Positions 8,963 through 51,739 of a stretch of 64,000 nucleotides of DNA are shown here, piece by piece. Under the pieces are notes generated by a model. It was not told the origin of the DNA. It saw only the letters and a program-made list of their open reading frames with translations, and ran no database searches. The position numbers and the translations under genes were made by a program. The stretch is taken from NCBI GenBank assembly GCA_951406725.2, contig OX597828.1, positions 11,222,001-11,286,000 on the forward strand, read 5' to 3'. The first letter of the stretch is position 1; each line of letters starts with the position of its first letter. This DNA is from Octopus vulgaris. Taxonomy: Eukaryota.

Positions 8963-9969
8963 AGTGTATTTATGTATGAGCACACCAATACACACACACA
9001 CACCGATAAATAAGCACATGTATTTTTATATACAAGTCACGTTTAGATACGTACATTCATGTGTGTGTATGTGCGCGCGCGCGTGTGTGTGTATGTGTGT
9101 GTTTGGACGAGTAATTTTCTCCTCTACTATTTGAAAATTCACACACATTTTGAATTACCCACGCATCCTTAACTCATTCCCACTTACACACATCCACACA
9201 CACACACATACACACACACACTCAGAGTCATTTAAACAAAAGTAGATGCTTAATCCAAGAATAATGTGCATTTCATTACGAAAGCCGAATTCCACATTCT
9301 CCTTCACACATCGTCACACTTTTCACCTGCTGTCTAGTTGACTCTTATGAACACTTCTTAATGAACCTCTTGAGAAACGTGATTCATTTGCACATAGCTT
9401 GTCCATTGTACTCTGTGCGGAAATTAAACGTATAAGTCCATCCGTTACGTTGAAAGACGGATTCAACTTTGTTATATTATTGTTAGTAAGATGGCGTGTT
9501 ATACAAATGCGATTGGATTGGTAAAAAGAATGATTTTTTAAAAAAATATGTTTAAATGAATGAGAGCAAATCATTTACCAATATAGTAGTTATTTCACAT
9601 TCGTCCATTGGTTAATATTCATTAATAACACCAGGAACTTGGTGTGTCTTTATGCTTTGAGTCATTGTTCAGGTGCAAATTTCCGGCAGAAGGGAGCGTG
9701 ATTTTATAGTGTTTAAAAGACGTACGTTTATAGAAGTTTTAAGAAAATAGGATGTTTGATGCTTCACAGAAGATTTAAAGTAAAAAAAAATTATCGTTTT
9801 TAGTATTACAATGATAGGGCAAATAAAACTGCTTTCAATCAGTAGTAGCTTCTTCAGTATTAATACTTAACATATACAATACTTAAAATTGGGTCTTTTG
9901 ATCAAATTACGCCACTATCCTCTGTTAATTGCTTCGCTAAACTAACATGTACTATTAGGACTCGGTTCT

Positions 9970-10030
<61 letters not shown>

Positions 10031-10222
10031 TCTTTTACTTGTTTCAGTAGTGTGTAAATTTTCAAATAGGAAAGGAGAAAATTACTCGTCCAAACACACA
10101 CACACGCGCGCGTGCACTCACACACACATGAATGTACGTATGTAAACGTGACTTGTATATAAAATACATGTGCATATTTATCGGTGTGTGTGTGTGTTGG
10201 TGTGCTCATACGTAAATACACT
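8963..10222. repeat. Inverted duplication with arms at 8963-9145 and 10050-10222
   Basis: AGTGTATTTATGTATGAGCACACCAA...CTATTTGAAAATTCACACA aligns to the reverse complement of the second arm with scattered mismatches. Confidence 0.9.
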
Positions 10223-10272
10223 GATGGGGCACGTGTTATCTTGTCTCTGAATTATAAGTTAGTTGTTTAGGC

Positions 10273-10383
10273 CGGTTACTGACGAGAATTCGCCTGGTAG
10301 ATAATATGGTCTTGCTAAATTATCTATTAAAAGATGGCAAGCAATATTATTTGCTAAAGAAATTCGAAACCATGGTATAACCG
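10273..10383 (+). ncRNA. Type I hammerhead ribozyme, copy 1; predicted cleavage after GUA at 10377
   Basis: Stem I CGGTTA/TAACCG; core CTGACGA 10279-10285; stem II GAATT/AATTC; GAAA 10366; stem III AC-CATG-GT; GTA triplet. Confidence 0.85.
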
Positions 10384-10764
10384 TTATATAACAAAGTAAA
10401 GGTTTTTATTTTTCATTTACTTCGAAATTTGCTATAAAATTGTGGTTTTTGGCCGTGTTCGGCTGCTATTTCTAGCATGTAAAAATTATTGTTAAAGGAT
10501 AATTTTCTATTTTGAAATACGAATATGTTGTCTATTGACTTTTTATACATGCTAGACCACTGGTGGTGATATTTATAACGAGTATTCGCCACCCTATATA
10601 TATATGTACCTTATGAATATGTTCTTAGCATTCTCGAAGTTTCAGCTCGGCATTGTACCCATTGCTGACTGTAAATGCGCCTGCGCGCGATATTTGAAAA
10701 ATTATAGCATATAATGATGGGAAAGTGTTATCTTGCCTCTGAATTATAAGTTAGTTGCTTAGGC

Positions 10765-10875
10765 CGGTTACTGACGAGAATTCGCCTGGTAGATAATATG
10801 GTCTTGCTAAATTATCTATTAAAAGATGGCAAGCAATATTATTTGCTAAAGAAATTCGAAACGATGGTATAACCG
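10765..10875 (+). ncRNA. Type I hammerhead ribozyme, copy 2; predicted cleavage after GUA at 10869
   Basis: Same stems and core as copy 1, but the stem III loop is GATG. Confidence 0.85.
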
Positions 10876-11011
10876 TTATATAACAAGGTAAAGGTTTTTT
10901 ATTTTTCATTTACTTCGAAATTTGCTATAAAATTGTGGTTTTTGGCCGTGCTTGGCTGCTATTTCTAGCATGTAAAAATTACTTGTTAAAGGCTAATTTT
11001 CTATTTTGAAA

Positions 11012-11078
<67 letters not shown>

Positions 11079-11176
11079 CATTTATCGATTTTTTATATAT
11101 GTATCCATATATATATATGTATAAGTATGTAAATGTGTGTGTATTTATATTCATAACTTAACCTTATGTACTTTCT

Positions 11177-11308
11177 AAAATCTCTGACGAAGCCTAAAGA
11201 AACATCCAAGCACCTCATTTTCATCTACTAATTACTTCAGTCTACTGGAGGGATAAAGGCAGAATGAGGTATTTTTGCCTCTTGCTTGAAACAGCTGTAA
11301 GATATTTT
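11177..11308 (+). ncRNA. Candidate type I hammerhead ribozyme of a different sequence family, with a long stem II insert
   Basis: ATCT-CTGACGA (11184-11190)-AGC...GCTT-GAAAC-AGCT-GTA (11297-11299)-AGAT. Stem III is the palindrome ACAGCTGT. Stem II closure is imperfect. Confidence 0.6.
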
Positions 11309-12469
11309 CCCAATTTCTATTCCTGTATGTTATATATTTTAATAATTACTGGTATCTTTATATATTTTATATGTAAAGCATAATGTGTTATACATGTATG
11401 TATATTCTTGTAATTGTCATTTTAGTAAGTAAATAAATAAATTGACATAAAATAATGTCTAAAAGTTGATGAACCACCTATTGACTCCCTCCATTTTCTT
11501 ATTGCTCTCTCTCTCTTTCTCTCTCTCGATATATATATATATCTTTATGCAAACACACACACATACGCAAATGCACACGCACACGCACATATATATATAT
11601 ACACACATACACATACTTACCATTAGAGGTCACAGGTATTAGGCTGGAGATAATCATTCTATCATTCCATCATAATATGAGGTAAATATGTCTGCATGTG
11701 TGCGTGTCTGTGTATGAATGTGTACGTATGTGCATGTGTGCGCGTTTGTGTATGTATGCGTGTGTGTGCAGACATGCTTATATTGCATACATTCATGTCC
11801 ATACAATCCACAAAACTCTTTGGAGTCTGATGATATATTAGCATTTATTTTAGTTATATACAGCATATTACAATAATCTACACGTGTTTCCACGTAGAGG
11901 AGCTTTACCAAATATTCACTTCAAAATACAAATTAATAAATACCAGACAAGAACAAGCAGTGGAATGTCTTCACACAAGCATATAAACTTCCAGACAATA
12001 TAAATGAATACATTATACAATATATAATACTAATAAAGTACGGACCAGACCATCAAAACGAATTTAAACAAACAAAAATAATTCTATGCAAACACTGCCC
12101 TCTGAACCAAGGGTAGCACATACAGCTATTAGGACATATTAAGAACATTGAAAAAAAAACTCCAACCTCGATCTATTTTACGACCAGGCCCCAACCTCGT
12201 TCAACAGCGGAGATGAAATCTAGGTCAGATTCTTGTAACTATAAATAACAACAACCCTACCTTCTACGGAATATTAACCAACATAATTTGCAGCCAATTC
12301 ACTTCGAATAAGACAAATGGAGGGTCTCTGATGAAACTGCATTGACAATATTGTAAGGCTGCATCTGCAACAACGTTCAGTCGCTGCAGTGGAAACATCT
12401 GTAAGCCATTGTAATATGCTGTATATCACAATAAAATAAAAATAGTCGATGTACAAGCCGCCAAACTCT

Positions 12470-13527
<1,058 letters not shown>

Positions 13528-50459: not shown

Positions 50460-51739
50460 GAGGGACGTTCAATAAGTAATGCCCCTGACCCACTTGCAGT
50501 TGTTTGATCTAGCTGCAATTTTGCATGTGCAATTATTCATATCTTTATAGATTAAATGGCGAATTACAGCTCTGTGGTTTCTGAGTTACAGGTGTTTGAA
50601 CTGAGTCAAATGTGAAATGGAGCCTGTTGAGTGTCGAGCAGTGGTCCGGTTTTTGTATTTGTAAGGACGCACACCACGGGAGACTTTGATGAAATGAAAG
50701 TAACTTATGGTGATGATGCCCCATCATATGACCTTGTAAAACGCTGGCATCGTGAATTCAAACATGGTCGGAACTCTGTGGAAACAGCTCCCAGATCTGG
50801 TCGCCCCCCTTCTGCCATTGATGAGGCATCTGTCCGTCAAGTTGATGCTGCCATTTTGGAAGATCGACGCATAACTATTCGCCAAATAGCCCATGAGGTC
50901 AAGATTAGTACCGGGTCTGTGGAAACTATCATTCATGACCATTTGCATATGCAAAAGGTGTCTGCCAGATGGATTCCCAGGCTGCTCACACCTTTCCAGA
51001 AGCAAGAACGCGTCGAGTGCTCGAGGATGAATTTGGAGATGTGCCAAGAAGATGAGTCAAATATTTTCAAAAGACTGATTACACAGGATGAAACCTGGGT
51101 CCATCACTATGATTCAGAGACCAAAGCCCAGTCAATGCAGTGGAAGCACCATGACTCACCTCCTCCAAAGAAGGCAAGGGTTCAGCCCTCCGCTGGCAAA
51201 GTCATGCTCACAGTCTTCTGGGACCAGGACGAAGTAGTGATGACAGATTTCCTGGCAAAGGGTACCACAATTACAGGAGCCTATTATCCTTCACTTTTGA
51301 GGAAATTAAGAGAAACTATCAAAATCAAGAGGCGGGGCAAGATCAGCAAAGACATCCTCCTCCTGCAGGACAACGCTCCGGTCCACAACTCGCGTCTCGC
51401 CAGATCAAAAGCACAGGCGTGCGGCTATGACCCCCACCCCCACCCCCTACTCTCCTGACCTTGCACCCTCTGATTTTCACCTCTTCCCAGTCATGAAGTT
51501 GTTTTTGAAAGGAAAGCGTTTCCCAGATGATGCAGCCTTGATTTCTGAAGTCACGTCGTAGTTGGAGGACCAAGCTGGGGTCTTCTACAAAAACGGTCTC
51601 CAAAGCTGCATCAAACGATGGGAGAAATGCGTAACTCTGGATGGTTCCTATGTAGAAAAAGACTAATAACTGTGCCAAGTTTCGTTGCTCTACTGCTATG
51701 GGAAGTGGGTCAGGGACATTACTTATTGAACGCCCCTCG
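50459..51739 (+). mobile_element. Full-length mariner transposon (1281 bp) with 37-bp TIRs, inserted in (TA)n
   Basis: Left TIR CGAGGGACGTTCAATAAGTAATGCCCCTGACCCACTT. The right TIR at 51703-51739 differs at 2 positions. TA is present on both sides. Confidence 0.97.
50617..51666 (+). pseudogene. Mariner DD34D transposase, inactivated (irritans-like)
   Basis: Starts MEPVECRAVVRFLYL* and contains WIPRLL, TQDETW, LQDNA and HPPYSPDLAPSDFHLF. It has two in-frame stops and at least two frameshifts. Confidence 0.95.

What the first reader, a model, noticed from the sequence alone, without database searches (positions are those of the whole stretch)
10222..11013. Non-coding element with twin intact hammerhead ribozymes predicted to excise a 492-nt RNA
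Seen: two ~298-bp direct repeats flank a ~195-bp spacer, and there is no ORF. Each repeat contains every element of a type I hammerhead: 6-bp stem I (CGGTTA/TAACCG), CTGACGA, 5-bp stem II (GAATT/AATTC), GAAA, a short stem III and a GUA cleavage triplet. The predicted cut sites after 10377 and 10869 are 492 nt apart. Stem II is capped by a 70-nt insert that itself folds into two hairpins (TAGATAAT/ATTATCTA and GGCAAGCAAT/ATTATTTGCT) instead of a small loop. Established: retrozymes and Penelope-like element terminal repeats carry hammerheads, retrozyme monomers circularise, and short palindromic stem III sequences such as ACCATGGT allow dimeric cleavage. Inference: this is a retrozyme-like or non-autonomous Penelope-derived element that makes a ~492-nt, possibly circular, RNA. 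The branched stem II appears atypical of the minimal animal type I hammerheads. I cannot confirm that it is undescribed.
Basis: partly seen in the sequence, partly recalled or inferred. Interest (0 to 1): 0.88.

Follow-up and report, generated by a model that had tools for sequence, protein, structure and literature searches.

The report
Jumping RNA with stretched hammerhead ribozymes
This is one copy of a scattered, protein-free mobile element carrying two hammerhead motifs predicted to self-cut; the class is known, but one ribozyme arm is unusually long, and thousands of similar long-armed motifs in this genome would be missed by a standard search.

Summary
Observation largely confirmed: two ~300-bp repeats (95% identical, 492 apart), each with a full type I hammerhead motif; no ORF. 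The locus is 1.6 units of a dispersed 492-nt family (77 motifs with an exact core genome-wide). Copies show Penelope-like (PLE) hallmarks: scattered 5' ends, two fixed 3' ends, 5' inversions (19 of 51), (TA)n targets (40 of 51). It is best read as a non-autonomous PLE/non-LTR retrozyme, a known class. It arose by a 40-nt insertion, largely a duplicated hairpin, from a larger sister family (749 motif hits) with a ~40-nt arm. The same genome holds 3,381 further motif hits with 78-108-nt stem II, one in the terminal repeats of a full-length Hydra-type PLE. Rfam misses the window's motifs; the published minimal descriptor allows only 24 nt. No autonomous partner was found; cleavage, expression and circles are untested. 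New variant of a known kind.

The parts
10215..11013 (+). Whole insertion: 1.62 head-to-tail units of a 492-nt non-coding monomer, 5'-truncated, ending at the family's first 3' end
   Evidence: length 798; 5' at unit position 488, 3' at 300
10215..10519 (+). Repeat 1 (upstream, pseudo-LTR-like copy)
   Evidence: alignment
10273..10383 (+). Type I hammerhead motif 1 (stem I 10273-78/10378-83; core 10279-85 and 10366-68; stem III 10369-76; predicted cut after 10377)
   Evidence: activity untested
10286..10365 (+). 80-nt stem II domain: 5-6 bp base helix, internal loop, then predicted rod 10295-10356
10295..10334 (+). 40-nt insertion absent from sister subfamilies; its first 24 nt duplicate the following hairpin
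   Evidence: alignment; (19-22 of 24 identical in three copies of an older subfamily, 13 of 24 here)
10270..10294 (+). Possible 3-bp pseudoknot GGC 10270-72 with GCC 10292-94 (hypothesis)
   Evidence: 91% paired, no double change within family; weak covariation across sister families
10520..10594 (+). 'Tail' between the family's two recurrent 3' ends, ending GCCACCC
10595..10605 (+). Short internal (TA)n, variable in length between copies; second recurrent end
10606..10713 (+). Remainder of the monomer upstream of hammerhead 2
   Evidence: 133 candidates; of 40 scored most match all 121 nt
10765..10875 (+). Type I hammerhead motif 2 (predicted cut after 10869; private C-to-G change at 10863 breaks the stem III palindrome)
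10378..10869 (+). Predicted 492-nt doubly cleaved monomer RNA, 33% GC, strongly self-paired (z -4.8 against 60 shuffles)
   Evidence: existence untested
11014..11076 (.). (TA)n tract at the 3' junction, the likely insertion target
   Evidence: family-wide bias

Best explanation
This is a genomic copy of a dispersed, protein-free 492-nt repeat unit with a type I hammerhead motif, likely a non-autonomous Penelope-like retroelement (non-LTR retrozyme) that would borrow the reverse transcriptase-endonuclease of an autonomous Penelope-like element, most likely of the Hydra clade. Shown: dispersed copies, two fixed 3' ends at TA dinucleotides, scattered 5' ends, 5' inversions, (TA)n flanks, copies longer than one unit, and compensatory changes in the ribozyme helices between subfamilies. 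Inferred: an endonuclease nicks a (TA)n tract, reverse transcription primes 140 or 220 nt downstream of the cut site and runs back through an uncut or re-ligated hammerhead, giving up to 1.6 units; a two-hammerhead copy such as this one could be cut twice (helped by dimer pairing through the palindromic stem III) to release a 492-nt RNA that a host ligase would circularise. The long stem II came from a hairpin duplication distal to a conserved internal loop and was likely tolerated because the tertiary contact sits in that loop. This copy looks aged rather than a current master.
For: 54 matches from 40 scored of 1,422 candidates on many contigs; 81 exact-core long-arm hits, 77 of this family by inspection, control 2. 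Of 51 distinct loci (60 minus 9 duplicates): 31 end at unit 290-319, 14 at 380-409, 6 elsewhere; 5' ends spread from 5 to 488; 19 carry an adjacent 5' inverted segment; 24 exceed 500 bp; 40 have (TA)4 at the 3' end against 183 of 1,964 background windows. These match the pLTR, inversion and one-sided tail pattern described for PLEs (PMC8557442, passages). Stem II pair A-U to G-C in 11 of 59 copies; rod pair U-A/C-G 26/22; 45 double-change cells against 24.8 shuffled. Stem III loop is AT in 13, TA in 15, AA in 2 of 30 sister loci, so the palindrome is kept. A full-length Hydra-type PLE in this genome has the same two-end, (TA)n, inverted-pair architecture and an 85-nt stem II; published Hydra hammerheads have ACCA/TGGT and ACAG/CTGT stem III and prefer (TA)n (PMC8557442 supplement).
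Against: No autonomous partner sharing sequence was found: none in 51 family loci, 30 tail loci, 31 and 30 sister loci or 7 kb upstream of 20 sister motifs; neither the active Neptune-like family nor the Hydra-type copy L244 shares DNA with it. RNAalifold on 59 copies recovered stem I only, not stem II or the rod. Three rod pairs are unpaired in 24-27 of 59 copies, and the shuffle control ignores relatedness. In equilibrium folds the active shape costs 2.5 kcal/mol when the RNA ends at 10395 but 5-8 in longer RNAs and 12.4 as a dimer. No pile-up of 5' ends at the cut site (0 of 48 segments start at it, 6 start 6-15 nt after it). Only two loci show two full motifs at unit spacing; no long arrays. 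Samples were chosen by score or intact motif, which favours long, intact copies. In the 2026 preprint 8 of 9 predicted retrozyme dimers did not cleave.
Confidence: 0.85

Rival explanations
1. The unit is only the terminal repeat (long 3' UTR end) of an autonomous PLE whose coding part I did not reach.
For: The Hydra-type copy L244 has about 2.1 kb of non-coding DNA between stop codon and hammerhead, so 1.5-kb flanks can miss an ORF; only a sample of loci was examined.
Against: Upstream of the hammerhead the family continues into its own tail and (TA)n (a closed 492-nt cycle) in 24 of 51 copies; 5' junctions go straight into (TA)n, inversions or unique DNA; 20 sister loci read to 7 kb upstream show no contiguous ORF.
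Confidence: 0.08
2. The element moves as a SINE-like passenger on uncut tandem transcripts; the hammerhead is slow or dead in vivo and no 492-nt or circular RNA accumulates. (Compatible with the class call; differs in the RNA step.)
For: Active fold disfavoured in long RNAs; no 5'-end pile-up at the cut; many cDNAs run through the cut site; metazoan PLE hammerheads cleave poorly in vitro (PMC4209133, sections read).
Against: Compensatory changes in stems I, II, the distal helix and the stem III palindrome across subfamilies imply selection on the fold in source elements; circular templates would give the same copies.
Confidence: 0.35
3. A one-off local tandem duplication of a dead repeat, with a chance hammerhead-like pattern.
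For: Most family copies hold a single hammerhead.
Against: 0 of 100 shuffles give the motif; the same head-to-tail junction occurs at dozens of unlinked loci; a second two-motif copy lies on another contig (L085); the two repeats differ from the family majority mostly at separate positions.
Confidence: 0.02
4. The mobilising partner is a Neptune-clade rather than Hydra-clade PLE.
For: A young Neptune-like family with many 775-aa open frames sits in (TA)n here; a Neptune-like fragment abuts one copy (L084).
Against: No shared DNA; the abutting fragment has its own 3' end; stem III type and long stem II match Hydra-type elements.
Confidence: 0.25

Closest known systems
Non-LTR retrozymes of animals (Cervera and de la Pena 2020, PMC7229834; Li, Clavereau and Pollet 2026, 10.64898/2026.07.22.740005)
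   Same: Non-coding, low-GC (33%) head-to-tail unit with one type I hammerhead per unit; short palindromic stem III; many solo copies; coexistence with PLEs; strongly self-paired monomer.
   Different: Unit 492 nt (170-400 nt in the 2020 paper, within the 51-972 bp of the 2026 preprint); at most 1.6 units seen, no arrays; stem II domain 80 nt instead of a 4-bp helix with small loop; explicit PLE-type inversions and two-end tail; circles not shown. Tandem Repeats Finder does not report the locus, so the 2026 pipeline would likely miss it.
Hydra-clade Penelope-like elements (Craig et al. 2021, PMC8557442)
   Same: (TA)n targeting; type I hammerhead with ACCA/TGGT- or ACAG/CTGT-type stem III; pLTR, inversion and tail architecture.
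   Different: No ORF; published Hydra hammerheads have stem II of 3-7 bp with loops of 3-10 nt; no sequence-linked master found.
Minimal PLE hammerheads (Cervera and de la Pena 2014, PMC4209133)
   Same: Type I topology, G10.1-C11.1, palindromic stem III suited to dimer cleavage.
   Different: Descriptor allows stem II up to 7 bp and loop 2 up to 10 nt, 24 nt in all, against 80 nt here; this motif has a 6-bp stem I and a 2-3 bp stem III.
Discontinuous Clec2 hammerhead; PLE-X1 hammerheads of Selaginella
   Same: Natural hammerheads tolerate long insertions: 150-1,500 nt in helix I (PMC6155905 passage); loops of about 30-35 nt in stem II.
   Different: Clec2 is type III, single-gene, insertion in helix I; PLE-X1 arms are about 40-55 nt and in plants.

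Membership tests
Type I hammerhead ribozyme | Core CUGANGA / GAA / NUH with stems I, II, III in type I order | tested here: met
   core plus G10.1/C11.1 intact in 35 of 59 copies (sample biased to intact motifs)
Type I hammerhead ribozyme | Helices supported by compensatory change | tested here: met
   stem II A-U/G-C in 11 of 59; stem I and II variants in sister families; related sequences, so few independent events; RNAalifold did not recover stem II
Type I hammerhead ribozyme | Match to an Rfam hammerhead model | tested here: not met
   no hammerhead family at E<=1 in 9000-12500 or E<=10 in 10230-10520; expected with an 80-nt stem II
Type I hammerhead ribozyme | Self-cleavage | not testable with these tools
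   needs in vitro transcription
Non-LTR retrozyme | Non-coding head-to-tail unit of a few hundred bp with a type I hammerhead in consecutive units | tested here: met
   1.6 units with two motifs here and in L085
Non-LTR retrozyme | Dispersed multi-copy, low GC, no LTR-retrotransposon ends | tested here: met
   ends are PLE-like; PBS/PPT not searched for explicitly
Non-LTR retrozyme | Multimeric tandem arrays | tested here: not met
   longest of 51 copies is 798 bp; published families also include mostly monomers and dimers
Non-LTR retrozyme | Expressed as linear and circular monomer RNA | tested here: inconclusive
   no RNA holder on record; only contigs of guessed RNA runs
Penelope-like element (non-autonomous) | 5' truncation, partial tandem (pLTR), adjacent 5' inversion, tail at one end | tested here: met
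   tail about 85 nt, longer than the 30-40 bp quoted in PMC8557442 but shorter than the 181 nt of L244's family
Penelope-like element (non-autonomous) | 3' sequence shared with an autonomous RT/GIY-YIG element | tested here: inconclusive
   none found in the loci sampled; the genome could not be surveyed whole
Autonomous PLE | RT and GIY-YIG ORF between the repeats | tested here: not met
   longest frame 65 aa; no PLE protein match in the window with the 7 fragments used
Plant LTR retrozyme | Type III hammerhead in LTRs | tested here: not met
   motif is type I

The most novel reading that the evidence does not exclude
This genome carries an unrecognised radiation of several thousand active hammerheads in which stem II has grown into a 40-105-nt rod, anchored by a small loop-loop pseudoknot, carried by Hydra-clade Penelope elements and their circular-RNA parasites; standard descriptors and Rfam overlook the whole set, so hammerhead counts in such genomes, and claims that some PLEs lack hammerheads, would need revision.
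Probability: 0.4. Interest if true: 0.68.

Novelty: new variant of a known kind. Interest (0 to 1): 0.5.

Why it matters
The element class is known, so the locus alone is modest. What adds value is the ribozyme architecture and its traceable history: a short-arm ancestor, a 40-nt hairpin duplication, then compensatory change keeping a rod. It gives a natural series for asking how long stem II arms affect cleavage and whether a loop-loop pseudoknot replaces the usual tertiary contact. Over 4,000 motif hits with 30-108-nt stem II in one genome, outside the 24-nt limit of the published minimal descriptor, suggest animal hammerheads are under-counted. The copies also give testable footprints of more-than-unit reverse transcription, which bears on the open question of whether PLEs use circular templates.

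Tried and rejected
Rfam: no hammerhead hit. Two motifs 5.58 kb apart on C2 were a segmental duplication, not a full PLE; two 3.1 kb apart on C22 were separate subfamily copies with no ORF between. Neptune-like fragment beside L054/L084 and the active Neptune-like family: no shared DNA. Hydra-type fragments near L278 and L285 are separated from the motif by (TA)n and other repeats. Two-hairpin fold: favoured in 5 of 59 copies; two of the eight pairs of its first helix unpaired in 26 and 30 copies. One search used a mis-registered structure string and is void; one search replaces it. Expression: no RNA holder listed; contigs from guessed-RNA runs cover the unit but mostly carry another subfamily's variants, and the 'goes back 493' joint is just the genomic tandem junction; not evidence either way. 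Circle versus tandem template: within-copy overlaps are about as alike as best between-copy matches, uninformative. Pseudoknot count (14 of 23 Watson-Crick, shuffled mean 9.9, p about 0.025) used an ad hoc picker on related sequences after dropping 7 of 30 loci; a hint only. Pfam finds nothing in the L244 frames. Earlier findings: none. Literature searches with no relevant hit for long stem II or cephalopod hammerheads. Lunse et al. 2017 (PMC5785218) is not held and was not read; one supplement of PMC4209133 could not be searched; bioRxiv supplements were not seen; Repbase and Dfam could not be searched.

Full report
Observation. The sequence is as described in its main points. Two repeats, 10215/10222-10519 and 10714-11013, are 95.4% identical and offset by 492. 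Each holds stem I (CGGTTA/TAACCG), CTGACGA, a stem II opening with G-C, GAA, a short stem III and a GUA triplet; numbering puts the predicted cuts after 10377 and 10869. The motif occurs twice in the window and in none of 100 shuffles. The longest stop-free frame is 65 aa. Rfam returns no hammerhead family. Repeat 2 has ACGATGGT, a private change seen in 1 of 59 copies.

A dispersed family. A search of the own genome (2.8 Gb, 227 contigs) gave 54 matches from 40 scored of 1,422 candidates. An exact-core pattern with a 62-92-nt stem II gave 81 hits (control 2), 77 of this family by inspection. In 51 distinct loci (60 fetched, 9 duplicates removed; chosen by score or intact motif) the 3' end falls at unit position 290-319 in 31, at 380-409 in 14 and elsewhere in 6; 5' ends spread over the whole unit; 19 have an adjacent inverted segment; 24 exceed 500 bp; 40 have (TA)4 at the 3' end against 9% of background windows. 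The window copy, 798 bp, is the longest of the 51. One other locus has two full motifs at unit spacing (L085). So the 'spacer' is simply the rest of a 492-nt monomer and the locus is 1.6 units. Partial tandems, adjacent inversions and a tail at one end are the arrangement described for PLEs (PMC8557442, passages).

Stem II. On the alignment, the base helix has A-U in 47 and G-C in 11 copies, an inner rod pair is U-A in 26 and C-G in 22, another U-A in 27 and C-G in 7 but unpaired in 25; 45 double-change cells against 24.8 shuffled. The two-hairpin model has 16 such cells, 11 from the shared base helix. Against this: three rod pairs are broken in 24-27 copies, RNAalifold recovered only stem I, and related sequences inflate such counts. 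Sister subfamilies, reached through variants seen in laid contigs, have the same unit but lack exactly 10295-10334. In three copies of an older long-arm subfamily the first 24 inserted bases match the following hairpin at 19-22 of 24 positions (16 in a fourth with an indel, 13 in the window), so the arm likely grew by duplicating a hairpin, after which cross-pairing gives the rod. A pattern for 30-60-nt stem II with ACCWWGGT gives 749 hits (control 17); in 30 loci the loop is AT 13, TA 15, AA 2, so the palindrome is kept while its sequence changes, as expected for dimer cleavage (PMC4209133, sections read). GG just 5' of stem I and (C/T)C in the stem II internal loop recur in 23 of 23 loci counted, suggesting a 3-bp pseudoknot; this is a hypothesis. 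Pseudoknots between stems I and II are known in hammerheads (PMC3088659, passages).

Partner. No PLE ORF is joined to any sampled copy or sister copy. A young Neptune-like family with 775-aa frames exists (clade label from the linker motif, recalled) but shares no DNA. A second long-arm hammerhead motif at window 11184 led to 3,381 hits of a 78-108-nt stem II with ACAGCTGT (control 3); 21 of 30 sampled have at least 3 bp of stem II and a valid cut base, and 22 fall in four clusters. One, L244, lies in 1.17-kb direct repeats around RT and GIY-YIG-type frames (split by a frameshift) with DKT, CxCx5C, CxxC and CxH, the Hydra-clade features listed in PMC8557442 section 11; its family also ends at two TA sites. 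Published Hydra hammerheads have the same stem III types but short stem II (supplement part 2). I therefore favour a Hydra-clade partner (about 60%), unproven: L244 shares no DNA with the unit.

Mechanism. Shown: structure of copies and conserved fold. Inferred from PLE biology: nicking of (TA)n, priming at one of two internal TA sites about 140 or 220 nt downstream of the cut, reverse transcription back through an uncut or re-ligated ribozyme. More-than-unit copies fit a circular template, as proposed for PLEs, but equally an uncut tandem; no 5'-end pile-up at the cut and overlap identities do not decide. The active fold is within 2.5 kcal/mol of the minimum just after synthesis and 5-8 kcal/mol away in longer RNAs, so cleavage would be co-transcriptional if it occurs. 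Each repeat carries several private changes, so this copy looks aged. Expression data are uninformative.

Comparison and novelty. It works like, and meets the sequence criteria of, animal non-LTR retrozymes (PMC7229834, passages and section 14; bioRxiv 10.64898/2026.07.22.740005, parts 1-3 of 5), with circular RNA untested and no long arrays. The distinguishing feature is the stem II domain: 80 nt against a 24-nt limit in the published minimal descriptor and about 55 nt for the longest in the table I read. Searches for a description of long stem II or cephalopod hammerheads found nothing relevant, but Lunse et al. 2017, subscription papers, Repbase and Dfam were not seen, so the family may already be catalogued as an unnamed repeat. 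Long insertions in natural hammerheads have precedent in helix I (PMC6155905 and PMC6765202, passages). The genome's size and about 30 large contigs resemble an octopus genome (recalled, not tested). Verdict: new variant of a known kind, interest 0.5.

Noticed in passing
window 11184-11299 (+), element about 11061-11600: A second, unrelated type I hammerhead motif with a 97-nt stem II and palindromic ACAGCTGT stem III, 170 bp downstream of the finding, in the same (TA)n tract; clusters with 7 of 30 sampled loci.
   Followed up: partly
G000 genome-wide: 3,381 exact hits (control 3) of CTGANGA-N78-108-GAAACAGCTGT, several families, some young with near-identical inverted pairs 0.6-1.8 kb apart.
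   Followed up: partly
L244 (G000:C1:64854000-64863999, minus strand): Full-length Hydra-type PLE, about 6.8 kb with 1.17-kb direct repeats, a frameshift between RT and endonuclease parts, asparagine-rich linker and a ~2.4-kb AT-rich 3' region; much longer than the under-3-kb Hydra elements described.
   Followed up: partly
G000 genome-wide; L248-L297: 749 hits (control 17) of 30-60-nt stem II with ACCWWGGT: many sister subfamilies, some as same-strand pairs 435 and 691 bp apart; no ORF found upstream in 20.
   Followed up: partly
L091-L120: Very young Neptune-like family with many identical-scoring copies and 775-aa open frames; I saw no standard hammerhead core in the one 3' region printed (L094) but did not search it properly.
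   Followed up: no
L061-L080: Two further families with 26-35-nt two-part stem II and ACCATGGT stem III.
   Followed up: partly
window 6430 (+): Minimal hammerhead-like motif with a U-for-C first core base (TTGAAGA...GAAACGTA), a repeat seen in several fetched loci.
   Followed up: no
window 50631-51458 (+): 275-aa frame resembling a mariner transposase (recalled resemblance, not scanned).
   Followed up: no
runs X1-X4; L139/L140: Contigs from guessed-RNA runs of three studies carry the same variant set, matching the C30 subfamily copy whose first stem II pair is altered; possibly one read-through locus with a weakened ribozyme.
   Followed up: no
runs X18-X20: Long-arm sequence is also held in runs labelled organisms C and D, so the subfamily may predate a species split.
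   Followed up: no
L081-L082 (G000:C2:181368500-181379700): 5.58-kb tandem segmental duplication, 99% identical, containing one family copy interrupted by another repeat.
   Followed up: yes
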